A DNA stretch of 64,000 nucleotides, from the NCBI GenBank assembly GCA_000002435.2, contig CM018792.1; one strand, written 5' to 3'. Position 1 is the first letter of the stretch; each line of letters begins with the position of its first letter. The stretch is from Giardia intestinalis. Lineage: Eukaryota. Made by a program: the position numbers and the translations under genes. Positions 1 through 58,898 of this stretch are shown piece by piece. The notes below the pieces were generated by a model. The model ran no database searches and was not told the DNA's origin. It saw only the letters and a program-made list of their open reading frames with translations.

Positions 1-500
1 GGTGTGTGTGGCAGACAGACAGGGAGCGCGGAAAGAGAAGAGTGAGGTCGTGCAGGAAGGTCCGAGGGGCCGCCGGAGGACACGTGCACGCCCACGGCCG
101 GGTCTTCCTCGTGCAGAGGGACGCCCGTGTGTGCCGCACAGCACCGCTGGGAGGCCGTCGGGGGAGACCGCTGCGGAGAGGGCAGCAGAGCAGCCAGGAG
201 GCCCCAGAGGCGGTGCAGGGTGGCTGTGTCACCCTGCCAGAGGGTGGAGGCAGGGGGCACACGGGGGAGGGGCGCAGAGAGGGCGCGGAGGGGCGCGTGG
301 ACGGAGCCCTGCAGGGGACACGGGGGCAGCCACCGAGGATCCCTCGAGCACTCCGGTCTCTCCTGTGGCCTCCTGCTCCCCCGTGCCCCCGCTGTAGCCA
401 GGCGCGCACCCCGCACCCGGGACAGCCACCTGAAAGAGCTGTGTACACCGGGACAGAGAGGGTGACCAAGGAGAGTCAAGCAGTCCTGTCATGAGGGTGC
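1..500. other. GC-rich (about 68% GC), purine-skewed non-coding segment at the window edge. The small ORFs here look like compositional artefacts.
   Basis: The composition differs sharply from the flanking DNA. There are G/A-rich runs such as gggggagggg and agggagcgcgg, no A-rich initiator, and no recognisable protein motif in any frame. Confidence 0.3.
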
Positions 501-1059
501 ACCGGTAGGCCCTTGTCCAGCACACATCATACGATATTCGGAGGTCATGAAGTGCGTATTCGGTGCGTCTATCAGACGTCAATACGGCTGGATTAGCCGT
601 CCTATTGCCAGGTTGTGCCGCCTCGAGTTAGCAGAGAGCTATGCTCCACCCTCTGCAGGCTGCTCTCTCAGTCGCGGCTCAGCCCTTGTCCCGGAATTCC
701 GATACCATTCAGGCTCTGCCTCGTCCGCCCGCTGCACTGTAGAGTAGGAGCGCAGGCCTCGGTCCACACTTCAGTGTTACCCATTCCCATAGTGCAATCC
801 GTCACATTAGAAGATCAAGGATGTTTTAGCTTAGTCTTTGCAACCATCTATGAAGAGTGCTTCGCAAAGGAAAGAACATGACAAAACTTTATTGGGACTT
901 TGTCCAGCACTCTTCTAAGCCTAGAATCCGCATTGCCAACGACTAGGGAAGTATCGAATGTTCTAGGAAACCGCTTGGAAGCACAGCCCACGATATGTTG
1001 CCCTGCAAGAGCCTTTCCCTTTAACTCGGCGCATTCAGCCATGCACTCCCACCTCTATA

Positions 1060-1919
1060 GAATTCCGAGACGTCTGCTTTTCCTACAAGACGGGCTGCGA
1101 TATTCTACATGGCTTGACCCTGTTTGTTCATCCCGGTCAGAAGGTTGCTATCGTGGGAGGTCTGGGATCGGCAAGTCCACGATCATCAACCTCTTGACGC
1201 GGCTATACACCACACCCCAGCCTCAGGACACTTCGTCGCCCGGAATCTATCTCAATGGCAGGGCTATAGGGTCCATTCCACGCGAGGAGCTGCGGCGGCT
1301 TATAACAGTCGTCCCGCAGGATAACATACTCATCAGGGGCTCTGCCACGGACAACATCGCCTATGGACAGCCCCGCAAGCTCCTGGGCTCCCACGCAGAA
1401 AAGGAGCAGAGGCGCTACATCCGAGAAGTCATTCGGCTATGCTACGAGGCTTCCCGTGTTGCTACTGCTGAAGAGCTCCTGGGAGACGCACCGTACAGTG
1501 GAACCCTGCAGGGCCTTTCTGGGGGACAACGCCAACGGGTAGGAATTGCCAGAGCTGTCGCACGTGGAGGCAGCGTTCTTGTGCTCGACGAGGCGACGTC
1601 GGCACTCGACGAAGAGACAGAGAAGCGGGTCCTCCAACAGCTATTCCGCTCACTGGACCCCAACCAGAGCGTCGTCATTATCAGTCACAGACTCTCCACT
1701 CTCCGGTATGTCGACCTGATTTATGTCCTAGATAATCCAGATGGCAGTGGAGCGCGCGTGGTAGAGTCAGGCTCGTACGACTGGTTCGTTGCCGAAAGCC
1801 AATATCTGAAGGATGCAGGCCAGGATATCTCTGACCTTGTGAGTAACTGTGGCTGTAGCAGCGCAGGTGTTACCCCAGGCTTCTCCCATGCAACTCTTGA
1901 TGCAAAGGGGGATCCGTAG
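1060..1919 (+). pseudogene. C-terminal nucleotide-binding domain of an ABC transporter (ABCB/ABCC-like half). It has an internal +1/-1 frameshift near 1158-1163 and no upstream transmembrane domain. It is probably a pseudogene fragment.
   Basis: One frame gives EFRDVCFSYKTGCDILHGLTLFVHPGQKVAIVGG. The reading then switches frame to give a Walker A motif (GRSGIGKSTIINLL), the ABC signature LSGGQRQRVGIARA, a Walker B motif (VLVLDEATSALD) and an H-loop (ISHRLST). The sequence gtgggaggtctgggatc is one base short of the expected GG-SG-IGKST. The upstream 1 kb has no TMD-coding frame. Confidence 0.6.
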
Positions 1920-2046
1920 AAACAAAGCACGCCTGGTGGCAAAGACAAATAAGACCAACCAAAACCGCCGAATCAGCAGTCAGTGAATACCTTATAAAGT
2001 CACCTCCTAGTAGTGCTAATTTACTAACCACAAAGTCTGCTGCCGC

Positions 2047-5000
2047 TTAAGCTTCCAGAAGCCGTTTGAATTTCAATTGTAAGGTTTGACTAACAAGCTC
2101 AAGAGTGCTTTGAATCTCAGAAACTTCATTACATGACTCTAGCATCTCCCTGTTGGAGAAGACCTTGAACAAAAAGTTGAAGATTAACACGAAGCTAATA
2201 TAATTTGTTTCCTTCAAGAGTGGCAGAACATCACACGTACAATACTTCAAGTATGAAACCATGCGCTCTCGGACGCCCAACCACATAGAGGAGCAGTCGA
2301 TGAGTTTGTTCTGTACCAACTTATTCTTGATTCTAGAAACGGCCACCAGAACATTATGTAAGCATCCAACTGAGAAGATTTGATTTATAAGAGGAGTGAA
2401 TTCAATAGACCCCGGATTAACTATCGTTTCAGTTGCTTCTTTGTGAAGAGCAGCCGCCACTCTTTGATTTAGAGAAGAGTATGTCACGCCAGAGAGAGCA
2501 ATACTTTTAGGCTTCCGTATATCAAGCACCAACTCATCAATTTCACTGAAAACACTATACAGTAGAAACTCTAGGTAACACTCTGTGGCTGTGTTAAGAA
2601 CCAAAAAGGTCGACTGACAAGCTCTGAAAAATGCACCAGATTCATCAAACGAATATAGATTTGCATAGTCTGCAGGCTTGTTTTCTGCTGAAAAACAATT
2701 TCTAGCAAAAGCATAGGACTGGCGTGTCTTGTGCAAAGAGAAATCTACAAGCTGCGACGTGTCTAGCTCTGAGCGAATCTCCATGATAGCGTCTGCAGAA
2801 TAGTATGAGCTAGCGGTTTCAATGGAATATTGTAGCTCGTCAAGAAGCGAAACCCCTAGGAATAACTGGCCTAGAAGAGACGCGCTGGCGGAAAGCTCTA
2901 TATTGATATCAAACTTCGATGCTAGAAGAGGGAGAAGATTTCTTTGGACAATAAAACTATCAGTAATGAGCTGCTGAAGAGAAGCTTCTATACTTTGAGC
3001 CGTATGCTGGGCAAATAGCTTTCTATAAAAAGACTTATCAAGTGCCTCAAAGTTCAACGAGTGAAGCGAATTGTTAGACTGATTAGGCTGCTGTGCATCG
3101 GAAAGTACACCTATCCGAGTCTTGCCCAGCTCAAAACTGGAGGTCTTCGACTGGTATTCGTTCAGTAGATGGAGGCTAAAGATAGCCCCACCCATATATC
3201 CCTGGATTATAGTCAAAAAGGCCCTTATCAGATCTTCCACGGTTGAGCTTTTCATTCTGGACACAAAGAGCGTAGCATGTTCCAAAAGAGATAGAATCGC
3301 GAGTATGCACAGCGAAATGGACTGTTCAGATATATGGTTATTAGAGGCACGTTGATCCCATTGCTTTATTATAGCTCCAGTATAAATGGAATAGACATGC
3401 CTAAGAATTCCATAATCATATGCTAAGTAGGCTGCATCATTGCGTACAGTTGTTGCTAAGGGAATAAATGCATTGCCTTTAATGTCTGAGGCTACATCTG
3501 CTGAGAAAGACTGTCCTTTAGCCATTTTTAGAGTAGGAGAAAGACTCATCATCTGGGGGGTCTGCTCGGGAGAATCTACAGAGCATACTGGAAGCGTACC
3601 CTCACGAAGAATTGTCGACGGATTGACGACTGAACATGTCCCGATAGATCTAGCAACAGATTGCGCAGTGAATAGATAGGACTTCAATACAGATGCCTCT
3701 AGGCTAGAGATAAATTGAAAAGCTCCTTTGCTGATTCTCGAATACCCTGCTCCCAGTGTACCGAGAACATCTAGAAGATGATATCCAGCATTTAGCGCAT
3801 CAAGGCAAATGGAATTGAAGATTATTATGTCTGTTCTGCGTGTAGTAACAAATTGAGCAATCTGCTTCAGAAGCAGATTGACGATGTATGCTACAATGCC
3901 TTGGGTCAGTCCGGGGATTGTTCGGACAAGAAATCCCAATCCATCGATGAAATACCGCATTGTTGCAAAATAAAAGTCGACGGGCTTTTGAAGCTTGCTT
4001 GCTAGTAAGGTTGAGATGGGTGAGCTCATATGAAGCAATTGCAAAATAAGACTAGAGAATGAAGAGTCCCCAATTTGCTCGAATAATGGAAGCTCCTTTG
4101 CAAATGGAATCTGGATCTGCTTCTGATCTAAGATCGGTCCAATATAACACATGTTCTGGGTACGGATGAGCTCTTTTGGCCTTAGTCCGACGTACAGTAA
4201 AAAATCGGACCAACAATATATATTCTGCTGTGTCCCACCTGGCGAGACAAGAGAACTAGAGAGTTGTTTCGGTATCGGGCTTGGCTCGCTAGAGATTAGG
4301 CCTGACTTAATAGCGGAAATGGAAGATCCTGCATTCGATAGGGGAGACATTGGAGGGCGCTGTGGAGAGTCAAGAGTCGATTGAGCAGAGTCTGGTGGTG
4401 AACGGAGGGTAGGCTCTACGTCATCAAGAGTGCACTCAATGCATATGTAATTAAGGGAAAAAACAAACACAATCTGGTTGTAGATAATAAGAAGGATGAG
4501 ACGCAGTATTTCCTCGCTCAAAAGACCGGCCATTCCTGTAAAGGAAATACGTTGCACCAAGCCATACCTTACGTCCCAAGGTAGCGCAGTTGTCAGAGAC
4601 AGAGAAAAGGGAAAGACATCAGAGACAATCGCGTCACTAAAGACATCCTTAAAGTTTCCGGAGAATGTATAACCATAGCTACATAGCTTTCCAAAGGTGC
4701 TTAAAGAAATCTTTGGATCAAACGCTATTTCTTCCGTAACTATAAATTTGTAGAGTAAGGTCTCGAATCGTGGAGCAAAGTCCATTAGCTTCTTATTCAG
4801 GATTTGAGAGTTTTCTGGAACGAGCTTCGTCGCAACTGCGTTTTGACCAAAGATCGAAGATATGTTGGAGTCTTCTAGCTTCTTTATATCTATCCGTGTC
4901 AAGAACATATTTAGATTTTCTCCAAGAATAGCATTCTGTTGTCCCAATTGAGTCAATACCGTTGAGAGAAGTTCTACCTTGCTAGCTGCCTTCATATCGA

Positions 5001-5454
5001 GATAGAAGTACTTATTCTTGAGGGAGATGAGATATTGCAAGTACATCCTCAAGTCCTCTTGGTTAGCAGAAGCGATATAATCAACCAGGGATATGCAGCT
5101 CGCCATTTCGTCTGATAGTTTAAAGAAATCGGCGTGCTGCATAGCCTGATCGTACTTGAGTTGAAGCTGGTCTCTAGCCTTGCAGCGCGCAATCACATCC
5201 GAAAAAACTCCCATTGACTTTTCCGTGAGAGCACTAAACTTCTCGCTATGAAAGTCGATGGACTTCGTAAGAGATATCATTCTGTTAATGCACGTGAGGA
5301 GAGAGGAGAAGTCAACGAATTTCTCCTGAACATCTCGGGCTGCCTCTTCTGCGTTGCCTCGCTTCTTCTGCTTCAGTTGGTTAAGCTGGTCGTTCACACT
5401 ATCTCTGGACCCATCACATCCCAGTGCCTTCAGCTTCTGAACGACTGGATCCAT
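2047..5454 (-). CDS. Large hypothetical protein of 1135 aa. No domain recognised.
   Basis: The ORF is an uninterrupted 3.4 kb. The ATG at 5454 is preceded on the coding strand by the A-rich initiator caaattaaaaacagg...ATG. Codon usage matches the neighbouring genes. Confidence 0.75.
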   Translation of the reverse strand: MDPVVQKLKALGCDGSRDSVNDQLNQLKQKKRGNAEEAARDVQEKFVDFSSLLTCINRMISLTKSIDFHSEKFSALTEKSMGVFSDVIARCKARDQLQLKYDQAMQHADFFKLSDEMASCISLVDYIASANQEDLRMYLQYLISLKNKYFYLDMKAASKVELLSTVLTQLGQQNAILGENLNMFLTRIDIKKLEDSNISSIFGQNAVATKLVPENSQILNKKLMDFAPRFETLLYKFIVTEEIAFDPKISLSTFGKLCSYGYTFSGNFKDVFSDAIVSDVFPFSLSLTTALPWDVRYGLVQRISFTGMAGLLSEEILRLILLIIYNQIVFVFSLNYICIECTLDDVEPTLRSPPDSAQSTLDSPQRPPMSPLSNAGSSISAIKSGLISSEPSPIPKQLSSSLVSPGGTQQNIYCWSDFLLYVGLRPKELIRTQNMCYIGPILDQKQIQIPFAKELPLFEQIGDSSFSSLILQLLHMSSPISTLLASKLQKPVDFYFATMRYFIDGLGFLVRTIPGLTQGIVAYIVNLLLKQIAQFVTTRRTDIIIFNSICLDALNAGYHLLDVLGTLGAGYSRISKGAFQFISSLEASVLKSYLFTAQSVARSIGTCSVVNPSTILREGTLPVCSVDSPEQTPQMMSLSPTLKMAKGQSFSADVASDIKGNAFIPLATTVRNDAAYLAYDYGILRHVYSIYTGAIIKQWDQRASNNHISEQSISLCILAILSLLEHATLFVSRMKSSTVEDLIRAFLTIIQGYMGGAIFSLHLLNEYQSKTSSFELGKTRIGVLSDAQQPNQSNNSLHSLNFEALDKSFYRKLFAQHTAQSIEASLQQLITDSFIVQRNLLPLLASKFDINIELSASASLLGQLFLGVSLLDELQYSIETASSYYSADAIMEIRSELDTSQLVDFSLHKTRQSYAFARNCFSAENKPADYANLYSFDESGAFFRACQSTFLVLNTATECYLEFLLYSVFSEIDELVLDIRKPKSIALSGVTYSSLNQRVAAALHKEATETIVNPGSIEFTPLINQIFSVGCLHNVLVAVSRIKNKLVQNKLIDCSSMWLGVRERMVSYLKYCTCDVLPLLKETNYISFVLIFNFLFKVFSNREMLESCNEVSEIQSTLELVSQTLQLKFKRLLEA

Positions 5455-5553
5455 AGAAAGGGCCTGTTTTTAATTTGTTCAAGACTGCAGGAACAAAGTA
5501 CTTTATTCACTAGGCTAGATATGACATAGACATCAGTTACCAGATGGTAGTGC

Positions 5554-7872
5554 CTAGTTTGCTTCCATTGCCTTAAGCGTCTCATCTGGAAGACCGGTGA
5601 ATATCTGAACTTCGGGTTCCTTGATATTCTTGAGACTTTTCTGATGAAGCATGGTCTTTTTAAACTTCCCTATTTCTTCAGCGTGTCCTGGTACGTTTTT
5701 GAAGGAGGATGCGCTCGAAGCGTGTGAGTGAGCAACAGGGGTAACCTTCCTTTGCTCATGCGTAGCATCTGCCTCTAGGGAAGACTTTCCATCTAGTTTT
5801 GCTGCTCGCCGTGCGTCCCGCTGATATTGGGAGACATCAGAACCAGTGTTTCGTGCCACCCTTATTCGTGCATCATGTGCCGCCTTTTCCCTGGCAATTG
5901 CCTCTGCATTCAGACCTCCATGAAGAGCATCTCCACATTTTCCTGCCCCAGCCGCTAAGCCCAGGGCCTGACCATTGTTACTGTTGCCACTGCTGCCGAT
6001 AGCTGCAGGCTTTGATTGACTCCCAGAGCTGGCGGCCGTTGGTCTCTGCTCGCTTAAGATAGCAGCCACCTTAGCGGCAGCTGAGTTTGATTCTACTTTC
6101 TTGAGAGAGGGATTAGTCTTCCGCTTCTGGCGGGTATCTTCTTGTCTATCACGGTGGTTGTTGCTGGAAGTCGCATATTGTTCCTTATATTCGCGACCGC
6201 GACTTACGTGCGACCGTTGATTAACTGATGGAGCTGGAGCAGGTATACCACTGTTTAAAACATCAGTTAAAGGCGGCTGAAGGATTTGCTTTGCCCCGTC
6301 AGTTGTATCGTATTCGTGGTCCTGGCCAGGCTCAGAAGAGCGAGACTCTATGCGTGAATGGCCTCGAGAGGAGTGGCGAGAAAGACTATCTAGACCTATC
6401 TTGTAAACCCCGTCGTGGAAGTCAATGAACACAAACTGAGTAAGTAATGAGCGTGATATCTTTCGCATAACACGAACGTTAGGGTCCCTCTTATCTTCTC
6501 TTGCATTGGTGCTTACGCTCCTACTCTCAGGATTACTAAATAACTCACTGGGAGAACGAGGCCGTCGCAACCCCTTCCGCTCTTCAAATTCCTTCTGAAG
6601 TCTCATGCCGACGCCAGCTCCAATCAATCCTACCTCTGCCAGTGATGAGGCTGGTCGCGGTGCACTCCTCCCCCTCTCCCGCTCCAACTCAGACATGGCT
6701 GTAATGGATGCTAGAGACGACTTTGTGCTGTCAGAGCGACGAAGAGACTTGGTCGGAAGCCGCGGCTCAGAGACACTTCGTGTCGGTGTGCCGACATTGT
6801 TCATAGCTAAAGTGAGAACAGATTCACGATCCCTGCTGCCTTTCTCATTGATGGTAATGCGATCTCTGGATGCACCACTACGCTGCTTTTCAGCGTCTCC
6901 CCACCTAATAGTGTTGCCACCAGTAGCGCCAGCAAACATATGTGGCGGTGAGCGCACAAAGCTAGCTACATTCAATAACCCCTTAAGGATGTCATCACAG
7001 CTAGGACGCTTATTGGGAAGCTTTGATAAGGTTCGTTCTAAAATCGCTGTCAACACAACAGAGTGCTCGTGCTCATGGTATTGTTTAATTATGTTACGAC
7101 TATCGGTAAAAGACTCGTATTTCTGAATCTTATTCATTATAGCGAAAAAGTTGCCACCAGAAAAAAGCGGATTGAAAGTTAATATTTCGTAAAGAACACA
7201 CCCTAACGACCAGATGTCTATCTTGTTGTCATATCCCTCCTCATTGAAAACCTCTGGCGCCATGGTCTGAATGGTGCCAATTGCTGTATGATCCATGTTG
7301 ACGAGTTTGGGATCGATGTGCTTGCATGTGCCAAAATCCGCTAGTTTGACCATCATAATTTGGCTCAAGGGGTCCCTGGGAGACTTCAGCATCACTAGAA
7401 TATTCTTTGCGGAGATATCCCTATGGATGAGGTTGAACGCATGGAGATATGCAACCCCTGAGACTATTTGTACAAATAAACTAAAGGCCTCCTCTATGCG
7501 AAAATATGCTCCCTTTTCTTTACGGTGCATTATAATTTGATCTAATGAACTATCAGCAAGATCCATCACTATGATCATGGTATCCGACCCATTGCCGAGA
7601 CCCATATCGTTAGGGGCATGCATAAAGGACTCTCTGAACTTGATGATATAATTGTTCTTGAAAGTAGAATGTAGCTCCACCTCTTTGGCCGCGTGCTTCT
7701 TCTCTTTAGCTGTGTATTGCTCATAGAAGATTTCCTTTATACAAACCTTTTCAGTGCTTCCTTCTAGATTTGCGCTCCAGCACCGAGCGTATGTCCCCGA
7801 CCCAATGTCTTCAATTAAACGATATGTCTTTCCAGTGTTGGGAGAGGTGATGGCACATCCCGCCTCAAGCAT
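5554..7872 (-). CDS. Ser/Thr protein kinase, NEK-like, 772 aa. The kinase domain is N-terminal and is followed by a long Ser/Arg-rich low-complexity tail.
   Basis: Kinase motifs are present: a glycine loop IGSGTYARCW, VCIKEI with the catalytic Lys, HRDISAKNILV, DFGTCK and GTIQTMAPEV. The initiator is aaatttaaaATG. An AGTGAAT signal lies downstream of the stop. Giardia is known to have a large NEK expansion. The family assignment is from motifs only. Confidence 0.75.
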   Translation of the reverse strand: MLEAGCAITSPNTGKTYRLIEDIGSGTYARCWSANLEGSTEKVCIKEIFYEQYTAKEKKHAAKEVELHSTFKNNYIIKFRESFMHAPNDMGLGNGSDTMIIVMDLADSSLDQIIMHRKEKGAYFRIEEAFSLFVQIVSGVAYLHAFNLIHRDISAKNILVMLKSPRDPLSQIMMVKLADFGTCKHIDPKLVNMDHTAIGTIQTMAPEVFNEEGYDNKIDIWSLGCVLYEILTFNPLFSGGNFFAIMNKIQKYESFTDSRNIIKQYHEHEHSVVLTAILERTLSKLPNKRPSCDDILKGLLNVASFVRSPPHMFAGATGGNTIRWGDAEKQRSGASRDRITINEKGSRDRESVLTLAMNNVGTPTRSVSEPRLPTKSLRRSDSTKSSLASITAMSELERERGRSAPRPASSLAEVGLIGAGVGMRLQKEFEERKGLRRPRSPSELFSNPESRSVSTNAREDKRDPNVRVMRKISRSLLTQFVFIDFHDGVYKIGLDSLSRHSSRGHSRIESRSSEPGQDHEYDTTDGAKQILQPPLTDVLNSGIPAPAPSVNQRSHVSRGREYKEQYATSSNNHRDRQEDTRQKRKTNPSLKKVESNSAAAKVAAILSEQRPTAASSGSQSKPAAIGSSGNSNNGQALGLAAGAGKCGDALHGGLNAEAIAREKAAHDARIRVARNTGSDVSQYQRDARRAAKLDGKSSLEADATHEQRKVTPVAHSHASSASSFKNVPGHAEEIGKFKKTMLHQKSLKNIKEPEVQIFTGLPDETLKAMEAN

Positions 7873-7983
7873 TTTAAATTTTCCGTCAAAATAAAGTTAC
7901 TACACGGTCCATTGCCAAGGACACAAGGAGCCTTGCAGCCACACAGGATCTAGATCTTGGTAACTAACCTGTAGTACTATAAC

Positions 7984-8613
7984 ATGGCCATAAAGAATCC
8001 TTTGCCATACTACACTGCAGTTTTCACAGTACTGAAATTGGTCAAAGATGAGAAGCACCTTTACAGTCTCAGACTTCATGCCAACTCAGTCGGTTTACTC
8101 TGCTTAGGCCCGGACCATCCTCTTCTGTCTCTCCCCGATGACTGGGTCATCACCAAGGCTAGCTATTCTGATGGTGCGCACCAAGCCTTGGTTACAATGT
8201 CTGGCAGACGGAAGAAGGGGGCGGGGGTTCTCTTTCCACCGGCCCCGCTATTGACAGTTACCCTCGCTCGTGTTCGCAGCCCTGATAGCAGCGATGATGT
8301 CACCCCTAACACCCTGTCGGTGGTAATTTACTTGCCAATACGATTGAAGTTGATCGAGATCAATGATTCTTTGGAACGCTTCCCTTGGCTACTGAAGACT
8401 TGCTACACTAATCGCGGATTCCTGGCCATCGGGCTATTGCGATACGACTATGCCCAGGCATTGGCAGCGACCCTGCCGATTCAAAGCTACAGGTTAATTG
8501 ATTATGAAAATCTACCACCAGAGGAGAAGGAAAGGGCTCCTACAGAGGAGCAGAGTGCTGCTACTGCCAGGGCGGTCATGATTAAGCTAGACCCATGTCC
8601 GCTAGCTACCTAG
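7984..8613 (+). CDS. Hypothetical protein of 209 aa.
   Basis: The ORF starts with ATG and runs divergently from the kinase gene, with a 111-bp spacer. No motif was recognised. Confidence 0.4.
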   Translation: MAIKNPLPYYTAVFTVLKLVKDEKHLYSLRLHANSVGLLCLGPDHPLLSLPDDWVITKASYSDGAHQALVTMSGRRKKGAGVLFPPAPLLTVTLARVRSPDSSDDVTPNTLSVVIYLPIRLKLIEINDSLERFPWLLKTCYTNRGFLAIGLLRYDYAQALAATLPIQSYRLIDYENLPPEEKERAPTEEQSAATARAVMIKLDPCPLAT

Positions 8614-9590
8614 GCTACCAGAGTTACCGTTTTCCCAGGAGACTTTATGTTCATCCCAGTTACAGAGACAGGGTTAAACATTACACGTGGGGGCTCTTGA
8701 GTACTAGATAAATTAAAGTACTGACGGAAGTATACACCACAAGCAAATGTACTCCACGGTCCCCACAGCTCTATCGCGTTATTGTCAGCTGCCGTCGCAT
8801 GTTTTGCCACAACAATAATTTTAGAACCTTCTGAGTCATGGTCGTTGCAAAGATACAGTGTAAATGGCGGCAGAGAAGTGCGAGACTCTACAACCAATAT
8901 CTTCCTTTGTGTATTGTCCTGTGCGGTAATGCGACTCATCCCGTACAATCTGTGGTATGGTCCTGTGCACGGTATAGTAAGGGCTCTTGCTATTCTTTCT
9001 TCGTTCTCAACCTTCTTTTTCCACGATAACGATAGTTCTCTCATTACTTTGCTCTGCAATGGATTGGCACTACATAAAGATGAATGCAGTCCAATACGTG
9101 ATGACTCCCCGGCTTTCAAGTCGGACAATTGTAAGTCAGAATCTTCTTCTGCTTTTTCAGGGCACCCAGTCACGGCCTTCCTTCTCATATGGGCGGAGGA
9201 TAATGAAGAGCTTTGTAAATCAAAGCAGTCAGAGGGCTCCTCACCTTGCATCTCATCCTTTTTAGTGAGGAAACCGCACGACTGGTGACCATGATCACTG
9301 TTCGAGCTTGGAGACGATGTTAGCGCACATAACTGAATGGGATCCTGTGTGCATACAGATCCTGAAAACAGCTCACTTTGACTCCTATCTGTACTTAAAT
9401 CAGAGCATGTGTGTGATTGCGGAGTAGATGTGATACTGTAGACATCTGGGTGGTGGCGCCCCTTTTGAATCGTAGGATTCGAGATAGACGAAATAGACGT
9501 TTCGTTGGGGTCACGAGGAGGCCTGGCGGCTCCAGTACAGCCAGACCTAGTCGATAAATCACTTGTCACACTCTTTATGTCATCAGACAT
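8610..9590 (-). CDS. Hypothetical Ser-rich protein, about 326 aa from the first ATG. The track ORF begins at a GTG at 9650.
   Basis: The first in-frame ATG is MSDDIKSV at 9588-9590. The ORF is long and open. No recognised domain. Confidence 0.5.
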   Translation of the reverse strand: MSDDIKSVTSDLSTRSGCTGAARPPRDPNETSISSISNPTIQKGRHHPDVYSITSTPQSHTCSDLSTDRSQSELFSGSVCTQDPIQLCALTSSPSSNSDHGHQSCGFLTKKDEMQGEEPSDCFDLQSSSLSSAHMRRKAVTGCPEKAEEDSDLQLSDLKAGESSRIGLHSSLCSANPLQSKVMRELSLSWKKKVENEERIARALTIPCTGPYHRLYGMSRITAQDNTQRKILVVESRTSLPPFTLYLCNDHDSEGSKIIVVAKHATAADNNAIELWGPWSTFACGVYFRQYFNLSSTQEPPRVMFNPVSVTGMNIKSPGKTVTLVA

Positions 9591-9649
9591 CACTACAGGG
9601 AAATACCCTGGCAGAAAAGTCAAGTTTAGTATACCTACCCTACAGTACA

Positions 9650-10348
9650 CTACATTCTATTTCGGGCTGCAAACTGCGCCTCCAGCCTAAGAGCACGCTG
9701 GTACTGTTCAGCCAATTCAACCTTTGCTAGTTCAAGCTCCCGGATTTCTCCTTGCACATCTTGAAGCTTAATGCGCAGGTCCTCGAGAGCCCGCCTTGTC
9801 TTCTCGCCATTATTACTTATGATCTCTCTCCTACGTTCATCTAGCGTAGCAATTTCTCTCTTAAGTCTCTCCTCTTCAGAGACCCACTGTGCTTTGAAGA
9901 ATTGTGCTCTCTGCTCCATTTCTGCCGTTCGTGCTTGTGCGCCTGCAAGCTTTTGGAGAATTAGCGATCTTCGCCTCTCTAACGAGGCTTTTATTCCCTC
10001 AGTTGCCTTATCATATTCGTCCTTAGCCTTCTCGTGAGCCTCTTGGACCGCAGCCATTAGCTTTTCCGTCACGGACGCTTCCTGCTGCGCAGTAGAGATG
10101 GCATCTGCAAGTCTTGTCTGCTTTTCTCGCAGGCGCACCTTCGCCGTATGCTGATCTTTGTCAAGTGCTTCTCTTTCCTTAAGAAGGTCTCCCTCTAACT
10201 TGGCTCGCAAGTCTAGCTCAGCATCTGTCATCTCCCCTTCCCACTGGGCTTGCCGTTCTCGTCTCCACATCTCAAAGCTCCATGTTATGATGTTTTGTAT
10301 AGCTGTGCGCCGCAGGTTAAACTCTTCGATTTCATTGAGATCTGCCAT
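9650..10348 (-). CDS. Coiled-coil protein of 232 aa.
   Basis: Heptad-like charged repeats rich in E/K/R/L/A/Q run throughout. The start codon is an ATG. Confidence 0.6.
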   Translation of the reverse strand: MADLNEIEEFNLRRTAIQNIITWSFEMWRRERQAQWEGEMTDAELDLRAKLEGDLLKEREALDKDQHTAKVRLREKQTRLADAISTAQQEASVTEKLMAAVQEAHEKAKDEYDKATEGIKASLERRRSLILQKLAGAQARTAEMEQRAQFFKAQWVSEEERLKREIATLDERRREIISNNGEKTRRALEDLRIKLQDVQGEIRELELAKVELAEQYQRALRLEAQFAARNRM

Positions 10349-10636
10349 TATAAACGGTTTACGAAACCCTAAATTTTAGATCCACGACCTTCTATTTCAA
10401 TTACTTATCGTAGATCAGGGTCCATTCGCTGGGGAATGCTGTCCGTGACGTGGATAATGTTGGTATTGAAGACCTAGACCAGTGAGCAGCCACGGCTCAC
10501 TATCGCCTGTGGTCATCACCTTGCAGTAAATAGAAAACATACTTCTTGTTTCGAAGTGGTAGACAACCATGTCCTTAGTGCAGAGCCTTAGTTAATCGGG
10601 GTAGTTAAAAGTACATACTTTTACTGTTTACTGTTA

Positions 10637-10683
10637 AAGTAATATTACTTATTTTAACAAGTGTTGTGATCAGTAATATTACT
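10637..10683. repeat. Two copies of the perfect palindrome AGTAATATTACT, about 35 bp apart, in the divergent promoter between the coiled-coil gene and the PUF gene.
   Basis: AAGTAATATTACTT lies at 10637-10650 and AGTAATATTACT at 10672-10683. Both were read directly. The direct repeat tttactgtttactgtt sits next to them. Confidence 0.55.
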
Positions 10684-10792
10684 CCGCTCTACCTTATCAC
10701 GCTCAGGGTAGTAGTCTCTAGCTATGGTGCTGCAACTAATGTTTTGCGTTCTGGGCAAACACTTTTCAATCAAAAAAAAGTGTTCAAAAAAA

Positions 10793-12613
10793 ATGGCGGA
10801 TGGCATAGAAGATCTCCCAGAGATCAAGTTCTCTCGGATGCATCAAGAGGAAGTACCGCCTATTTATCCAGGTGCAGACTACTTGCTTTCTGGCCACCCT
10901 ATTAGTTCTACTCAGTCTGTGCATTTTGTGCCTCCGGGGCTTATTCCTATCAATGGCCAGTCTGGTCTCGATCCCTCGCCTATTCATCAAGCTGTGCCGT
11001 ACTACTCCCCCTCTCACGCACATGCTCTGTCTCCTGTGACGGGCTCGTTGACTAGTAGTACTGCAGCGCTGGCCACTGCACCCCTTGATGGCTCTATGCC
11101 GTCTAGCGTCGGTTTAGACTTCCCGCCTCCAGATATGGCGCATCGCCCTGCTTGCACAGCAACTCCAGTGTCGTCAGTGACCTCTGGCGTGTCTCCTCCA
11201 CACAACCTCTCCTTAAACCCTAACCCGGTCACTGTTCCTATGTCGATACCCGTACAGATGGCACCCGTTGCTTCCTCTCCATCGCTACTATGTGCCATGC
11301 AGTATCCTACTCAGCATCAGTATCCTAGCAGTTTTCCGTCCCTAGCCCATGGTAACCCTGGCCATCCATACTACTTCTCCTGTCCTCCATTCCCCTACTC
11401 GGCAGGCTCCTTGCACAGTCAGCCACCCGTACATTCGCACTCTCCCGTTGCAGGGCCAGTTCCGTTCTACTTTACACCTCATACTGCACCTCAGCTGGCT
11501 TATTCACAACCAGTACTCTCTACTCAGACTTTTGCACCACTTACAGTACCCCCTGTACCCGTCCCCAGTGGTGGACAGAGCTCTTTGACAGCCGTAGCTG
11601 CAACCACAGCGGCAACTACAATAGCTGTTCGTAGGACCGGTGGCAAGGACCGTCCATCTATCTTCCAAGAGCGAGCGAGGGTAAGCGTATCTACGAGACG
11701 GGGTGAACCCCCTGAGGTGTCCTCCAAGGACGCTGCTGAGGCAAAGAAAGCCGAACTGATGCAAGCAGGCCCACGGGCTGCAATAGCATATATGAGGGAA
11801 AATGAAAAGCACATAGAGGTGCTTATGATGTCTCCTTGTGGAAATCATCTGCTCCAGGCCCTCGTTAAGCTTTCTCCAGATGTTGTAGGGTCCATTATAC
11901 TCAACAGTACAACATATAATGAGGACATCTTCAGGATGATTATTAAGGGGAAATGTAGCTGCTGGGTTTTACAGGCTATATTTAGTTGTGGATACGTTCA
12001 CGACAAGACTTTTGAGGATTTACTGATCAAGCATCACGAGGAGATTGCAAAAAGTGAGTATGGAAACTTTGTCCTTCAAAGGGCTATAGAGTGCCCACAG
12101 TTTCAGTTTTTTGATACTTTGTCCGAACATCTCCTGCTAAGCTTTCAATCTATATGCGGCTGTAAGTACGGTTCTCACGTGGCAGAGTGTCTCATCAAGA
12201 CCCTTTCTGCAAGATCTAAGCTTGATGCCGCTGCATACTGGCTGTTCACTCAACCATATTTTTATGGCCTAATAATTGACCAGCACGGATGCTTTGTAGT
12301 AGAGAAGATAGCAGAGGTTGCAACAGGAGAAGTGAAGACATGCTGCTTACGTATTGTTAAGTATGTGATTAGTCTTTTCGCCCCCGGCAGCCAGCCTCAC
12401 GAAGCGGCAGAGCTATTGGGTATTACTCAGCAGATTACCCCTAATCTAGTTGAAAACATCAATAGTATTCTTTATTCTGTTAAATTGAGATGTAGAACCA
12501 TCAATAAATCCTTTGAGTCCATGGTTCCAATGTCTCAAAAAGATCTTCATGCATTTCTTAAGGACCGCAATATTTCGGTAGTAGGTCCTATGGGCTGCTC
12601 GGACGCTATGTAA
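10793..12613 (+). CDS. PUF/Pumilio-family RNA-binding protein with a Pro/Ser-rich N-terminus.
   Basis: The C-terminal half contains tandem Pumilio-like repeats: GNHLLQALVKL, CSCWVLQAIF, GNFVLQRAIE, KYGSHVAECLIK and QHGCFVVEKIAE. The start is taken at MADGIEDL, preceded by caaaaaaaATG. The track ORF starts 69 nt earlier. Confidence 0.6.
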   Translation: MADGIEDLPEIKFSRMHQEEVPPIYPGADYLLSGHPISSTQSVHFVPPGLIPINGQSGLDPSPIHQAVPYYSPSHAHALSPVTGSLTSSTAALATAPLDGSMPSSVGLDFPPPDMAHRPACTATPVSSVTSGVSPPHNLSLNPNPVTVPMSIPVQMAPVASSPSLLCAMQYPTQHQYPSSFPSLAHGNPGHPYYFSCPPFPYSAGSLHSQPPVHSHSPVAGPVPFYFTPHTAPQLAYSQPVLSTQTFAPLTVPPVPVPSGGQSSLTAVAATTAATTIAVRRTGGKDRPSIFQERARVSVSTRRGEPPEVSSKDAAEAKKAELMQAGPRAAIAYMRENEKHIEVLMMSPCGNHLLQALVKLSPDVVGSIILNSTTYNEDIFRMIIKGKCSCWVLQAIFSCGYVHDKTFEDLLIKHHEEIAKSEYGNFVLQRAIECPQFQFFDTLSEHLLLSFQSICGCKYGSHVAECLIKTLSARSKLDAAAYWLFTQPYFYGLIIDQHGCFVVEKIAEVATGEVKTCCLRIVKYVISLFAPGSQPHEAAELLGITQQITPNLVENINSILYSVKLRCRTINKSFESMVPMSQKDLHAFLKDRNISVVGPMGCSDAM

Positions 12614-12625
12614 ATGCAATGTCTC

Positions 12626-14068
12626 TTAGTCATCCTCCACATCTTTTTCGTCATCGTCCACTGTGAGCTTGTGCTGCTTGCGGGAGGGAACATCCAGACG
12701 TATGTTAAAGACATCCTGGATGGGTGTGGCAAGAGACCAGCCAAATGGCTGTAATATATATGCAGTCGAGTTAGAGCTTCCAACGGCCAAACTGAGGGAG
12801 TCCTCCCCAGTGCACCAAGCAAGAGAGAACACGGAAAACTCAACTGGCTCCACATGCAGCACCGTTAATGAGTCCGCTACATATGCGCACAAGGCTATTC
12901 CAGGAATCTCTGGGCCACCGACTGCAATAAGACCCTTGACTGCGGGATGCACTGAGAGGCCCGTTAACGGCGCCTTGCCAGGAGAGAGGTCGATGGATAC
13001 AGCATATTCTGCTAGGGGGAAAATAGATCCCACAACTGCTGACTGAGGATCTTTTTTAATATCCAACACAAGTAGTTCGCCCATTTCGGTAGTGCAGCAC
13101 AGCAAGTCTTCTGTTAACCAATCTAATTGCTCCGGATCTGCCTTCAGAACGGTAAGGATCTTAGGGGCCGGAGAGGGATCCATCACAGATATCACAGCAA
13201 CCTTCCGATCTCCAATACAGGTAGATGCCAGTAGGCCTGGACAAAATGGATTGAAAAGTACACAGGAAACAGGCCCGCCACTATGTACATTAGAGAATGT
13301 AGCAATGCATTTGGCTGTGTTAAGATCCCAAAGCTTGATTGTCTCGTCTGCAGAGCCTGAGGCAAGTATGTTACGATGCAAAGATGACCATGAAAGCGTG
13401 AGCACATGATCTTTGTGGGAGCCCGGTAGAGGGACCTGCTTAGTTCGTTTGTTCTTTAAGTAATGATTGTACGGTGCTGACTTCTTTGGCTTTAGACCCA
13501 CCTCTTGGAAGCCACCCAATGTAAGCACTGGTGAAATGGTATCAAGAGTGTCTAAATCCCATATTTCAATCTCTGTGGAGCAAGTTGATACTGCACAATA
13601 GTTGCCAGAGGCACCGTTTCCAAGCGGAGAAAAGTCTAGATATACGGTACAAAGGGGGATAGAGGTGATGAGTATATTGTGGTGGAAAAAGAAATCGTCC
13701 GTTTGTCCATTATAAACAAGACAGTCAACAAACCCTAGCTCTGCAGAGCGCGCGCATATAAGCATATTGTCACTATTAACTAGTTGGAATTGGTCTCGCT
13801 GCTCCTCATCGTCATCATCTACGATATTCTCTGGAGCGTGTGCCCCCTCCTGAATAGCAGGGGCTTCCCTCTGAGGTTCTTCAGGGCACCCTTCTGGCTG
13901 CTCTTCATCTGACTGGGAATCGTATTCCTCTGGCTCATCCGGCACCACTCCTGCCTTTAGTTCCTCCATAAGCGCTCGCGCCGCCTTCTCGTCAGCTTCT
14001 GTTGGCTGATACTTAAGTGGATTGTGCAGCAAGCGCCCACGCGGCACCCATGCCATGGAGGAAAACAT
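12626..14068 (-). CDS. PWP1: Periodic tryptophan protein 1 (PWP1) homolog, a WD40 ribosome-biogenesis factor.
   Basis: The N-terminus has WVPRG, an acidic stretch follows, then the diagnostic block FFFHHNILITS...SGNYCAV...EIEIWDLDTLDTISPVLTLGG...HKDHVLTLSWSS...LASGSADETIKLWDL, which is collinear with PWP1. The start is taken at the ATG preceded by attaaaATG; the alternative ATG at 14056 gives MAWVPRG. Confidence 0.8.
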   Translation of the reverse strand: MFSSMAWVPRGRLLHNPLKYQPTEADEKAARALMEELKAGVVPDEPEEYDSQSDEEQPEGCPEEPQREAPAIQEGAHAPENIVDDDDEEQRDQFQLVNSDNMLICARSAELGFVDCLVYNGQTDDFFFHHNILITSIPLCTVYLDFSPLGNGASGNYCAVSTCSTEIEIWDLDTLDTISPVLTLGGFQEVGLKPKKSAPYNHYLKNKRTKQVPLPGSHKDHVLTLSWSSLHRNILASGSADETIKLWDLNTAKCIATFSNVHSGGPVSCVLFNPFCPGLLASTCIGDRKVAVISVMDPSPAPKILTVLKADPEQLDWLTEDLLCCTTEMGELLVLDIKKDPQSAVVGSIFPLAEYAVSIDLSPGKAPLTGLSVHPAVKGLIAVGGPEIPGIALCAYVADSLTVLHVEPVEFSVFSLAWCTGEDSLSLAVGSSNSTAYILQPFGWSLATPIQDVFNIRLDVPSRKQHKLTVDDDEKDVEDD

Positions 14069-14090
14069 TTTAATTGTAATCCAGAAGCCG

Positions 14091-34492: not shown

Positions 34493-34749
34493 TGAGCCGA
34501 GCATTCAGGAGAGGCTGTTACCCACACTCACACAGAAGCAAAGAAGCGATTCGGATCACAGGATAAACTGACAGGCAAGTAACGAGAAGTAGGCTTAAGT
34601 AAAGGACTGTATGACTGCTAATCACCCAGATCGCTCTGGGAACTCAACCAGTCGCGCTCTAGCCGGCCTCTGACGCGCCTGTGCACACAGACGTAACTCA
34701 GCTGGCATTTTTAACTTGGCAAAAAGAAAAGAACCCCCTATCAAACTGG

Positions 34750-58542: not shown

Positions 58543-58898
58543 CAATGACTTCATAGAATAGCGCCCCAGATGCCATGGAGCGAGCAGATGCAGTATGACG
58601 CATTTACTACCGAGACGCCCTGCCCCTGCAGGCGGGCCCAGTGATACAGTGACAGCAATGTACAGGAGTGCACCCAAACAATCATTCCACAAGAGAGGTG
58701 CGTTCTGAGTCTGGCCATCACTCATCCTGTTCCTATCGAAGTCAGGGGGAACCGCACTGTCAGCCGGCCTCCGGTGGGCGTGCTCCTATCTCGTTCTTCT
58801 CCAGTCCAACTGATCAAGGGAGCAAGAGCGGCTGCCTCTCACTGCTCGCGGCAACACACCAGCCTGACAGAAGAGCAGTGGCATACGAACTCCCGCTA

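What the first reader, a model, noticed from the sequence alone, without database searches (positions are those of the whole stretch)
1..1919. Window opens with a GC-rich purine-skewed block followed by a frameshifted, 5'-truncated ABC-transporter nucleotide-binding domain
The ABC signature, Walker A and Walker B motifs are all present, so the homology is unambiguous. However, the reading frame switches at about 1158-1163 (gtgggaggtctgggatc, where GG-SG-IGKST is expected), and there is no transmembrane-domain coding sequence upstream. In its place is 500 bp of about 68% GC purine-rich sequence. This is either a decaying pseudogene or a sequencing or assembly error in a real transporter whose 5' part lies outside or was misjoined. 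Such fragments mark rearrangement breakpoints.
Basis: partly seen in the sequence, partly recalled or inferred. Interest (0 to 1): 0.5.

Follow-up and report, generated by a model that had tools for sequence, protein, structure and literature searches.

The report
Truncated duplicate of ABC transporter gene
The window opens with a real but ordinary gene relic: a copy of only the last third of a Giardia ABC-transporter gene that is intact elsewhere in the genome, disabled by a one-base deletion and belonging to a small repeat family that sits at points where Giardia isolates differ in gene order.

Summary
Bases 1-480 are 71% G+C and purine-rich. Bases ~1001-1946 are an ABC nucleotide-binding domain with every motif. 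The frame breaks at 1154-1156, where GGGG has become GGG. No membrane domain lies upstream.

It is not a sequencing or assembly error. The parent gene (XP_001710177, 867-944 aa depending on the gene model) is intact at another locus. The window holds a 946-bp copy of its last ~305 codons plus 27 nt, 96.5% identical. The same GGG allele occurs in about ten independent Illumina assemblies. The whole arrangement (GC block, fragment, 1135-aa gene) recurs in the independent DH (assemblage AII) assembly, where the fragment is still in frame.

The fragment belongs to a 1.47-kb unit (478-1946) present at two truncated loci. These copies and the intact gene share variants in a mosaic pattern, which suggests gene conversion. 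Unit boundaries coincide with differences in gene order among WB-like, DH and P15 genomes.

The GC block remains unidentified. It shows no rRNA, telomere repeat, IGS primer site or protein match. Its first 286 bases are hypervariable with indels that are not multiples of three, so it is noncoding.

Verdict: an ordinary partial-duplicate pseudogene, of low interest.

The parts
1..286 (.). GC-rich block, purine-rich on the + strand, hypervariable part. Noncoding. Identity not established.
   Evidence: G+C is 70-74.5%. Identity to the orthologous DH sequence is only 81.5%, with 45 gap columns. The largest insertions or deletions are 17 and 19 nt, not multiples of three. No Rfam, telomere-repeat, IGS-primer or protein match.
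253..297 (+). Cluster of G4-G5 runs, including a 10-nt tandem motif GGAGGGGCGC x3. This is a G-quadruplex-type motif sitting at the boundary between the hypervariable and the invariant parts of the GC block.
   Evidence: Tandem repeat at 266-297. G-run positions. A 19-nt indel against DH falls here. G-quadruplex potential is an inference and was not tested.
287..477 (.). GC-rich left flank specific to this locus (copy B). It is not shared with the other truncated copy.
   Evidence: 100% identical to DH contig AHGT01000035. Absent from the nine Logan contigs L017-L025 and from L026 and L027, all of which diverge from the window left of about 478.
478..1946 (+). 1.47-kb repeat unit shared by the two truncated loci (copy B here, copy C elsewhere).
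   Evidence: L027 aligns to 478-1946 at 98.8% and DH copy C (L026) at 95%. WB-versus-DH divergence inside the unit is 3-6%, against 0-0.8% in the flanks.
478..1000 (.). Non-ABC part of the unit. It has stops in all frames and no detectable homology to anything else.
   Evidence: Six-frame protein search. blastn and tblastx against the ABC loci of WB, DH and P15.
1001..1946 (+). Duplicate of the 3' end of the ABC transporter gene: the last ~305 codons plus 27 nt after the stop codon.
   Evidence: 96.5% identical to L011-L016, with 32 mismatches and 1 gap. 84.5% identical to the P15 orthologue.
1154..1156 (+). GGG run where all intact copies and both DH truncated copies have GGGG. This is the -1 frameshift.
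   Evidence: The same GGG is seen in L017-L020 and L022-L025, in L027, and in ORFs P0084 and P0087.
1041..1919 (+). 292-codon ATG-initiated ORF created by the frameshift. It reads 38 out-of-frame residues, then Walker A to the native stop.
   Evidence: ORFs of equal length (292 aa) that differ at 2 (P0084) or about 6 (P0087) residues were called in Logan assemblies. Pfam ABC_tran covers profile positions 18-137 only.
1155..1694 (+). ABC motifs: Walker A 1155-1181, Q-loop 1308-1322, signature 1515-1538, Walker B 1575-1592, D-loop 1599-1610, H-loop 1680-1694.
   Evidence: Closest solved structures are ABCB1-type nucleotide-binding domains, E=7e-66.
1947..2046 (.). Unique spacer between the unit and the neighbouring gene. 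The first ~6 nt still resemble the parent gene's AGTAAA region.
   Evidence: 100% identical to DH. Homology to locus A is lost at about 1946-1953.
2047..5454 (-). Neighbouring 1135-aa gene with no Pfam domain, convergent with the fragment. It anchors the locus.
   Evidence: Exact product found in 106 collection blocks of Giardia assemblies. Contigs coming from this side stop at window 1885-1908, where k-mers become shared with the intact gene.

Best explanation
Bases ~1001-1946 are a non-functional partial duplicate (an unprocessed-type pseudogene) of the 3' third of a Giardia intestinalis assemblage-A ABCB-like transporter gene. That gene (XP_001710177) is intact at another locus.

The fragment retains the nucleotide-binding domain from just before its first beta-strand to the stop codon, plus 27 nt. 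It has no membrane domain, no promoter-proximal part and no ATG in its native frame. In WB-like isolates it also carries a 1-nt contraction of a G4 run just before Walker A.

It is embedded in a 1.47-kb unit (478-1946) that exists at two truncated loci:
- Copy B is here, between a GC-rich noncoding block and the 1135-aa gene.
- Copy C has a different left flank and keeps about 124 nt more of the sequence downstream of the ABC gene.

Inferred history:
1. A duplication of the ABC 3' end and its downstream sequence created copy C.
2. The 478-1946 segment of C was then copied to locus B. This happened before assemblages AI and AII split.
3. The three ABC 3' segments have since exchanged sequence by gene conversion. 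That exchange spread the GGG allele between B and C in the AI lineage.
4. The segments have also served as homology for ectopic crossover. As a result, what follows the intact gene differs between WB-like genomes on one side and DH and P15 on the other.

Shown here: homology, boundaries, the frameshift, conservation in DH, the multi-copy state, mosaic variant sharing, and differing flanks.
Inferred: the order of events, gene conversion and crossover as the mechanisms, and non-expression.

The GC block is a locus-specific, noncoding, partly hypervariable flank. Beyond it both assemblies appear to stop. Its identity is unknown.
For: Parent gene intact elsewhere. The best database hit is P0001, XP_001710177.1. 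It lies in the context 501aa-ABC-198aa-256aa-NEK...MCM in six Logan contigs.

Extent of the copy. Window 1001-1946 is 96.5% identical to it, with a single gap. The gap is GGGG to GGG. tblastn finds no other part of the gene in the window.

The arrangement is real.
- The end of DH contig AHGT01000035 aligns to window 1-2406, including the GC block. It carries a 271-codon in-frame fragment (ESU37035.1) next to the 1135-aa gene.
- Logan contigs approaching from the 1135-aa gene stop at 1885-1908. That is 30 nt before the first B-versus-A difference at 1915, as expected for k=31 graphs when both copies exist.

The frameshift is real. GGG is present in eight of the nine junction contigs L017-L025 (L021 stops short of the site). 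They come from runs in several accession series. It is also in L027 and in the 292-aa ORFs P0084 and P0087.

A second truncated copy exists. Those contigs, L026 (DH) and L027 share 478-1946 but diverge from the window left of 478. L026 and L027 run on into the 198-aa gene.

Mosaic variant sharing. WIN_B differs from L027_C at 10 sites and DH-A from DH-C at 18, while all other pairs differ at 26-36. Many derived variants are shared between intact and truncated copies. The unit is 3-6% diverged between WB and DH, while its flanks are 100% identical and neighbouring genes about 99.2%.

Gene-order differences. The sequence downstream of the DH intact gene is collinear with P15. The sequence downstream of the WB-like intact gene is the same as that downstream of copy C.

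No ATG in the native frame. The DH ORFs start at TTG.

Background from the literature. The WB reference has 306 annotated pseudogenes and 6.9% duplicated sequence (PMC7000408). An ABC transporter gene showed excess read depth in an assemblage A isolate (PMC4570179).
Against: - The GGG allele was confirmed in contigs that carry the copy-C left flank, not the GC-block flank. For copy B itself the only evidence is this window, so mis-polishing from copy C cannot be formally excluded.
- Changes private to the truncated copies are mostly synonymous: 16 synonymous to 8 non-synonymous, 15 of 24 at third codon positions, p=0.003. That is not what free decay predicts. I attribute it to conversion from functional alleles, but past or present constraint is an alternative.
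- Some contigs that cross the repeat (L005, L027) may be assembly chimeras. The crossover part of the story therefore rests mainly on DH and P15 against the L011-L016 contigs.
- Expression was not tested.
Confidence: 0.85

Rival explanations
1. Artefact. The gene is intact in the organism, and both the frameshift and the missing 5' part come from a long-read homopolymer error and a contig-end misjoin.
For: The lesion is in a homopolymer. The WB PacBio assembly is reported to have had homopolymer frameshifts before Illumina polishing (PMC7000408). The region lies at the very start of the window, and the DH contig ends only 200 nt further out.
Against: The same GGG allele is present in Illumina-only assemblies from many runs. 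The same truncated arrangement with the same left breakpoint occurs in the independent DH assembly. The intact gene sits elsewhere with different neighbours. Contig breaks at 1885-1908 require two copies.
Confidence: 0.03
2. The fragment is a functional gene for a stand-alone ABC ATPase. That gene would be the 292-codon ATG ORF at 1041-1919 in WB-like isolates, or the 271-codon ORFs annotated in DH. On this reading the -1 shift is adaptive, because it brings the only available ATG into frame with Walker A onward.
For: All catalytic motifs are intact, and none of the four truncated copies has an in-frame stop despite 3-4% divergence. Private changes are biased toward synonymous and third-position sites. 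The frameshift allele is shared by both truncated loci in WB-like isolates. The native frame has no ATG, whereas the shifted ORF starts with one.
Against: The ORF lacks the N-terminal roughly 17 profile positions of the domain, which are the beta-strands and A-loop before Walker A. It has no membrane partner domain. No AT-rich initiator-like sequence precedes ATG 1041 (the expectation rests on my own knowledge of Giardia promoters). With about 30 substitutions, the absence of a stop codon is expected by chance about 30% of the time (my estimate). The synonymous bias is equally explained by gene conversion from the functional gene. The DH versions have no ATG.
Confidence: 0.07
3. Alternative origin for copy B. 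It is a retrocopy of a transcript of copy C, running from a start near 478 to the ABC polyadenylation site, inserted by a Giardia non-LTR reverse transcriptase rather than by DNA-level duplication.
For: The right boundary of B (1946-1953) coincides with the parent gene's AGTAAA-like signal 28-33 nt after the stop (the polyadenylation consensus is from my own knowledge). Copy C continues about 124 nt further. The next 20 nt are A-rich (AAGACCAACCAAAACC). A near-repeat TCA(A)GCAGTC lies at 476-485 and 1973-1981.
Against: There is no clean poly(A) tract. The putative target-site duplication is imperfect and offset from the boundaries, and a 7-9-nt match within such windows is plausible by chance. 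No precedent was found in the papers searched.
Confidence: 0.2
4. The GC-rich block (1-477) is the inner edge of a subtelomeric rDNA or retroposon array. The locus would then be a healed chromosome end where a break inside an ABC gene was capped.
For: G+C of 70-80% resembles Giardia rDNA (my own knowledge). rRNA genes lie at most WB chromosome ends (PMC7000408). The DH contig stops within 200 nt, and the window's first base coincides with the end of a G12 run. Bases 1-286 are hypervariable.
Against: No rRNA match even at E<=10, in the window or in the DH extension. No TAGGG repeats and no IGS primer sites. No reverse-transcriptase or other protein similarity in six frames. The ABC breakpoint at ~1001 is separated from the GC block by 523 bp that also flank the other truncated copy, so the GC block is not what truncated the gene.
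Confidence: 0.3

Closest known systems
Giardia intestinalis WB ABC transporter XP_001710177 (KAE8303138.1; 'Multidrug resistance ABC transporter ATP-binding and permease protein')
   Same: This is the parent gene. Window 1001-1946 is 96.5% identical at the nucleotide level to its last ~305 codons plus 27 nt, with the same motifs and the same stop position.
   Different: The window copy lacks codons 1 to about 626 (the membrane part), has the GGGG to GGG frameshift, ends ...GDP instead of ...GDL, and has different neighbours on both sides.
Giardia DH (assemblage AII) 'Transporter' ESU37035.1 (271 aa, contig AHGT01000035) and ESU36688.1 (271 aa, contig AHGT01000041)
   Same: ESU37035.1 is the positional orthologue. 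It has the same GC block, the same 478-1000 segment, the same breakpoint and the same 1135-aa neighbour. ESU36688.1 is the second truncated copy, C.
   Different: Both DH copies keep GGGG and are in frame. They are annotated as proteins from a TTG start. They are 3-6% diverged from the window inside the unit.
ABCB1 / P-glycoprotein-type nucleotide-binding domains (e.g. PDB 6qex, 4m1m)
   Same: These are the best solved-structure matches to the repaired domain, E=7e-66 over residues 20-267, and all motifs are shared.
   Different: The match is a domain-level relationship only. The Giardia parent is a half-transporter with a divergent membrane part that has no Pfam ABC_membrane hit. The window copy has no membrane part at all.
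Low-copy repeats and partial-gene duplicates that undergo interlocus gene conversion and non-allelic homologous recombination, as described for subtelomeric and segmental duplications in many eukaryotes (general knowledge)
   Same: A unit of about 1-1.5 kb at 95-99% identity sits at three loci. Variants are shared in a mosaic, and flanks are exchanged between isolates.
   Different: Recombination was not observed directly. Some of the evidence rests on short-read contigs that could be chimeric.

Membership tests
ABC transporter nucleotide-binding domain (Pfam PF00005, ABCB-like) | Walker A, Q-loop, LSGGQ signature, Walker B, D-loop and H-loop in the canonical order | tested here: met
   All motifs located at 1155-1694. 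PF00005 E=4.9e-18. ABCB1 nucleotide-binding domains E=7e-66.
ABC transporter nucleotide-binding domain (Pfam PF00005, ABCB-like) | A complete domain in one reading frame, including the strands and A-loop before Walker A | tested here: not met
   The raw ORF covers profile positions 18-137 only. The full profile 1-137 is covered only after one G is inserted at 1154.
Functional ABC exporter (half-transporter: membrane domain plus nucleotide-binding domain) | A transmembrane domain encoded upstream in the same gene | tested here: not met
   Homology to the 944-aa protein starts at about residue 624-627. Stops occur in all frames upstream, and there is no other hit in the 64 kb.
Partial-duplicate (unprocessed-type) pseudogene | A closely related intact parent gene elsewhere in the same genome | tested here: met
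   P0001 and P0078 lie at a locus with different neighbours. Both copies are inferred in the same samples from the contig breaks.
Partial-duplicate (unprocessed-type) pseudogene | A disabling lesion (truncation, frameshift, no start codon) that is real rather than a sequencing error | tested here: met
   The truncation is conserved in DH. GGG is present in about ten Illumina assemblies. There is no ATG in the native frame. Caveat: GGG was confirmed on contigs carrying the copy-C flank.
Partial-duplicate (unprocessed-type) pseudogene | Not expressed as protein; evolving without constraint | tested here: inconclusive
   No expression data are available here. Private substitutions are 16 synonymous to 8 non-synonymous, which does not look neutral but is explainable by gene conversion.
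Retrocopy (processed pseudogene) | A 3' poly(A) tract and flanking target-site duplication | tested here: inconclusive
   The boundary falls at the AGTAAA-like signal and an A-rich stretch follows. There is no clean poly(A), and only an imperfect, offset 8-9-nt repeat.
Giardia subtelomeric unit (rDNA, TAGGG telomere repeat, GilM/GilT retroposons) | rRNA gene sequence, telomere repeats or a reverse-transcriptase ORF in or next to bases 1-500 | tested here: not met
   Rfam finds nothing at E<=1 in the window and only three chance-level miRNA/snoRNA matches at E 3-9 in the DH extension. No TAGGG x3 and no IGS primer sites. The six-frame protein search returns only the ABC gene. The rDNA spacer and retroposon untranslated regions could not be compared for lack of reference sequences.
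Low-copy repeat that mediates ectopic recombination | Two or more dispersed copies over 1 kb and over 95% identical, with flanks exchanged between genomes | tested here: met
   The 478-1946 unit is at two loci and the ABC part at three. The intact gene's downstream flank differs between WB-like contigs and DH or P15. The recombination event itself is inferred.

The most novel reading that the evidence does not exclude
The 1.47-kb unit may be an active recombination substrate that repeatedly reshuffles chromosome segments among assemblage-A isolates and also feeds amino-acid variants into the nucleotide-binding domain of the functional ABC gene by gene conversion. Hints of reshuffling: WB-like genomes differ from DH and P15 in what follows the intact gene, and contigs L005 and L027 look like reciprocal recombinant junctions. 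In WB-like isolates the -1 shift, which brings the only ATG into frame with Walker A onward, might even yield an expressed ATPase fragment.
Probability: 0.12. Interest if true: 0.45.

Novelty: new member of a known kind. Interest (0 to 1): 0.2.

Why it matters
Mostly this is housekeeping. The fragment should be annotated as a pseudogene or partial duplicate, not as a transporter and not as an assembly error.

It has practical consequences for Giardia genomics. Short reads from three 95-99%-identical copies will mis-map. That inflates read depth and creates false variants in the nucleotide-binding domain of an ABC gene that carries a 'multidrug resistance' annotation. An excess-depth ABC gene has already been reported in an assemblage A isolate (PMC4570179).

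The unit also breaks short-read assemblies at predictable points, and it marks a place where gene order differs between isolates. It is therefore a convenient PCR-testable marker for structural polymorphism in assemblage A.

Tried and rejected
- Rfam scans of window 1-3000 and of the DH extension found no credible RNA match — nothing at E<=1 in the window and only three chance-level miRNA/snoRNA hits (E 3-9) in the DH extension — so the GC block is not recognisable rRNA.
- A six-frame translation of 1-1165, searched as one concatenated query against 5.8 billion proteins, matched only the ABC gene. Neither the GC block nor 478-1000 encodes anything known.
- Exact-product look-ups of ORFs 900-1919, 1041-1919, 615-881 and 229-582(-), plus six further small ORFs, were not on record. 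Only the 64-aa ORF 848-1042(-), which spans the left breakpoint, was found, and it gave the nine junction contigs.
- Two exact-pattern scans of JGI metagenome contigs with conserved GC-block 33-37-mers returned 0 hits.
- Published Giardia IGS primers and (TAGGG)3 were searched with up to 3 mismatches in the window and all loci. No relevant hit.
- blastn (word size 7) and tblastx of 1-1000 and of the copy-C left flank against the WB, DH and P15 ABC loci and the whole window showed no hidden homology.
- The Prabhu 2007 subtelomere paper and Arkhipova & Morrison 2001 are not held in the library, so published subtelomere maps could not be compared.
- I first read L005 (intact ABC next to the 1135-aa gene) as showing an intact gene at this locus in another isolate. 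I rejected that because the contig switches from A-type to B-type variants inside a 187-bp stretch identical in both copies. It is therefore either a k=31 chimera or a recombinant.
- I considered treating the GC content as an outlier. It is the maximum in the window, but only marginally.
Full report
ORGANISM AND SETTING. The window is from Giardia intestinalis assemblage A. It contains the Giardia snoRNA GlsR20. The 1135-aa ORF at 2047-5454(-) is found, residue for residue, in over a hundred collection blocks of Giardia read-set assemblies. One of these contigs (L001, DRR745022) is 100% identical to window 1885-15454.

CHECKING THE OBSERVATION. Bases 1-480 are 71% G+C, and 200-nt windows reach 70-74.5%. 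Purines make up 66% of the + strand over 1-340. This is the highest-GC 480-nt stretch in the window, but only narrowly: 0.715 against 0.69 for Cys-rich genes further along.

From 1155 to 1694 the long frame-3 ORF carries Walker A, the Q-loop, the LSGGQ signature, Walker B, the D-loop and the H-loop. It hits Pfam ABC_tran at E=4.9e-18, but only from profile position 18. The first part of the domain (…IEFRDVCFSYKTGCDILHGLTLFVHPGQKVAIVG) lies in frame 1.

Comparison with an intact copy shows that the switch is a single missing G in a G4 run. The intact gene reads ATCGTGGGGAGGTCT (IVGRS), whereas the window reads ATCGTGGGAGGTCT at 1154-1156. With the G restored, the domain covers the full Pfam profile (E=9.9e-24). 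Its best solved relatives are ABCB1-type nucleotide-binding domains (E=7e-66).

Upstream of about 1000 all three frames contain stops. A tblastn of the 944-aa protein finds nothing else in the 64 kb.

WHAT THE FRAGMENT IS. The full-length gene exists. The best database match is XP_001710177 (the WB 'multidrug resistance ABC transporter'), with a P15 orthologue at 83% identity. The different gene models put it at 867, 933 or 944 aa. In six independent contigs it lies between a 501-aa gene and a block 198aa-256aa-NEK kinase…MCM, which is not next to the 1135-aa gene.

Window 1001-1946 is 96.5% identical to the last ~305 codons of that gene plus 27 nt beyond the stop, with 32 mismatches and the one gap. 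Similarity vanishes on both sides. The window therefore holds a partial duplicate of a gene that is intact elsewhere. It is not a damaged only copy.

IS IT AN ARTEFACT? Three lines of evidence say no.

First, the independent DH (assemblage AII) assembly has the same arrangement. The end of contig AHGT01000035 aligns to window 1-2406, GC block included. It carries a 271-codon ABC fragment (ESU37035.1) with the same left breakpoint next to the 1135-aa gene.

Second, contigs that enter from the 1135-aa gene stop at 1885-1908. That is about 30 nt before the first base that distinguishes this copy from the intact one (1915). A k=31 graph does exactly this when both copies are present in a sample.

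Third, the 64-aa ORF at 848-1042(-), which spans the left breakpoint, is on record in nine Illumina-based contigs. Eight of them reach the site and show GGG. Two called ORFs of 292 aa (P0084, P0087) begin with the same out-of-frame peptide, MHSHLYRIPRRLLFLQDGL….

The WB PacBio assembly did suffer homopolymer frameshifts before polishing (PMC7000408), but this one is a genuine allele. One caveat remains. Those nine contigs carry a different left flank (see below), so for the copy next to the GC block the window itself is the only direct evidence of GGG.

A SMALL REPEAT FAMILY. The nine junction contigs, a further contig (L027) and DH contig AHGT01000041 (L026) match the window from about 478 rightwards. 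To the left of 478 they carry an unrelated 63%-GC sequence instead of the GC block. L026 and L027 continue on the right into the 198-aa gene.

There are thus two truncated loci that share a 1.47-kb unit (478-1946). The unit consists of 523 bp of non-ABC sequence and then the ABC 3' end, with the identical breakpoint. Copy B is the window's copy. Copy C keeps about 124 nt more of the sequence that follows the ABC gene in its ancestral context.

The simplest order of events has two steps. A duplication of the ABC 3' end plus its downstream sequence made copy C. The 478-1946 segment of C was then copied to locus B. Both truncated copies are present in WB-like samples and in DH, so these events predate the AI/AII split. 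This ordering is an inference.

SEQUENCE EXCHANGE. Across seven copies the variable sites do not sort by locus. The window's copy B and L027's copy C differ at only 10 sites and share GGG. DH-A and DH-C differ at 18. All other pairs differ at 26-36. When the changes are polarised with P15, 33 derived changes are shared between intact and truncated copies in varying combinations.

Between WB-like and DH genomes the unit is 3-6% diverged. Its immediate flanks (287-477 and 1947-2046) are 100% identical, and neighbouring genes are about 99.2% identical. The jump in divergence falls exactly at the unit's boundaries. This pattern is what interlocus gene conversion produces.

Changes private to the truncated copies are 16 synonymous to 8 non-synonymous, with 15 of 24 at third codon positions (p=0.003). 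Free decay does not predict this. I read it as variation imported from functional alleles, but constraint on the fragments cannot be excluded.

REARRANGEMENT. In P15 the intact gene lies mid-contig and is followed by a 109-aa gene, a sulfatase and a DUF676 gene. The DH intact gene is followed by sequence collinear with P15 over 2 kb, to the end of the contig. In WB-like contigs the intact gene is instead followed by the 198-aa block, which in DH follows copy C.

The WB-like arrangement therefore looks like the product of an exchange between the intact gene and copy C within the shared ABC 3' segment. Two short-read contigs join flanks in further combinations. L005 joins the intact gene to the 1135-aa flank, and L027 joins the C flank to the 198-aa flank in an AI-like sample. 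They may be chimeras or real polymorphic recombinants, and I could not decide between these.

FUNCTION. In its native frame the retained segment has no ATG at all, and the DH 'Transporter' ORFs are annotated from a TTG. In WB-like copies the -1 shift happens to bring ATG 1041 into frame with Walker A onward. This gives a 292-codon ORF, but it lacks the strands before Walker A and any membrane domain. No AT-rich initiator-like sequence precedes it (the expectation comes from my own knowledge of Giardia promoters).

I therefore regard the fragment as non-functional, with about a 7% chance that it is expressed as something.

THE GC BLOCK. It is conserved in position in DH. Bases 287-477 are identical between the two assemblies. 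Bases 1-286 are only 81.5% identical and differ by several insertions or deletions, the largest 17 and 19 nt, so this part is not coding.

A cluster of G4-G5 runs and a 10-nt tandem motif sit at the boundary between the two parts. The DH contig ends 200 nt further out, in about 80%-GC sequence. The window's first two bases align with the end of a G12 run there. This hints that the source contig also starts here.

The block has no rRNA match, no telomere repeat or IGS primer site, and no protein similarity in any frame. It has no match in the metagenome scans.

It did not truncate the ABC gene. The 523 bp between it and the breakpoint also flank the other truncated copy. Its identity remains open, because I could not obtain a Giardia rDNA spacer or retroposon UTR for comparison.

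AN ALTERNATIVE ORIGIN FOR COPY B. Its right boundary (1946-1953) coincides with the parent gene's AGTAAA-like signal, followed by an A-rich stretch. An imperfect repeat, TCA(A)GCAGTC, lies at 476-485 and 1973-1981. A retrocopy of a transcript of copy C is conceivable (about 20%), but the hallmarks are weak.

VERDICT. This is a real partial-duplicate pseudogene of an ABCB-like transporter. It has barely decayed and belongs to a three-member repeat family that exchanges sequence and marks differences in gene order among Giardia isolates. Its kind is well known: the WB reference already lists 306 pseudogenes and 6.9% duplicated sequence. The DH counterparts are already in GenBank as 'Transporter'. 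The interest is low and mainly practical.

Noticed in passing
window 58963-61871 (within ORF 58668-61988 +): 13.1 copies of a 222-bp tandem repeat, reported at 100% identity, lie inside a Cys-rich ORF with VSP and cEGF-like matches. Long ORFs are open on both strands across the array, and the region has a strong A-over-T skew.
   Followed up: partly
window 34606-34712 (-): The Giardia H/ACA snoRNA GlsR20 scores 128 bits. It is the only Rfam family above gathering score in the 64 kb.
   Followed up: no
window 24435-26852 (+) and 56092-58005 (-): A VSP-domain ORF (E=3.6e-38) and a papain-family cysteine protease ORF (E=2e-30). These account for the other high-GC stretches of the window.
   Followed up: no
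L005 (SRR10662890 contig 486) and L027 (SRR12825854 contig 5109): These short-read contigs cross the ABC 3' repeat with 'recombinant' flanks. L005 joins the intact ABC gene to the 1135-aa gene. L027 joins the copy-C left flank and the GGG unit to the 198-aa gene. They are either k=31 chimeras through a 187-bp stretch that is identical in both copies, or real polymorphic crossover products.
   Followed up: partly
L011-L016 versus L028 (DH) and L030 (P15), downstream of the intact ABC gene: Gene order after the intact ABC gene differs. WB-like contigs continue into 198aa-256aa-NEK…MCM. DH and P15 continue into a 109-aa gene and a sulfatase. The synteny break falls exactly at the end of the repeat unit.
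   Followed up: partly
window 1001-1916 compared with six other copies: Derived substitutions private to the truncated copies are biased toward synonymous and third-position changes (16 synonymous to 8 non-synonymous; 15 of 24 at third positions, p=0.003). This is unexpected for a freely decaying pseudogene.
   Followed up: partly
window 1-2 and L029 189-202: The first two bases of the window align with the last two G of a G12 homopolymer in DH contig AHGT01000035, and that contig ends 200 nt further out. This suggests both assemblies stop at the same hard-to-assemble GC-rich sequence.
   Followed up: no
window 476-485 and 1973-1981: An imperfect direct repeat, TCA(A)GCAGTC, lies near the two ends of the 1.47-kb unit. 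It could be microhomology or a target-site duplication, or it could be chance.
   Followed up: no
window 2047-5454 (-): The 1135-aa neighbouring gene is perfectly conserved across many assemblage-A read sets but has no Pfam domain.
   Followed up: no
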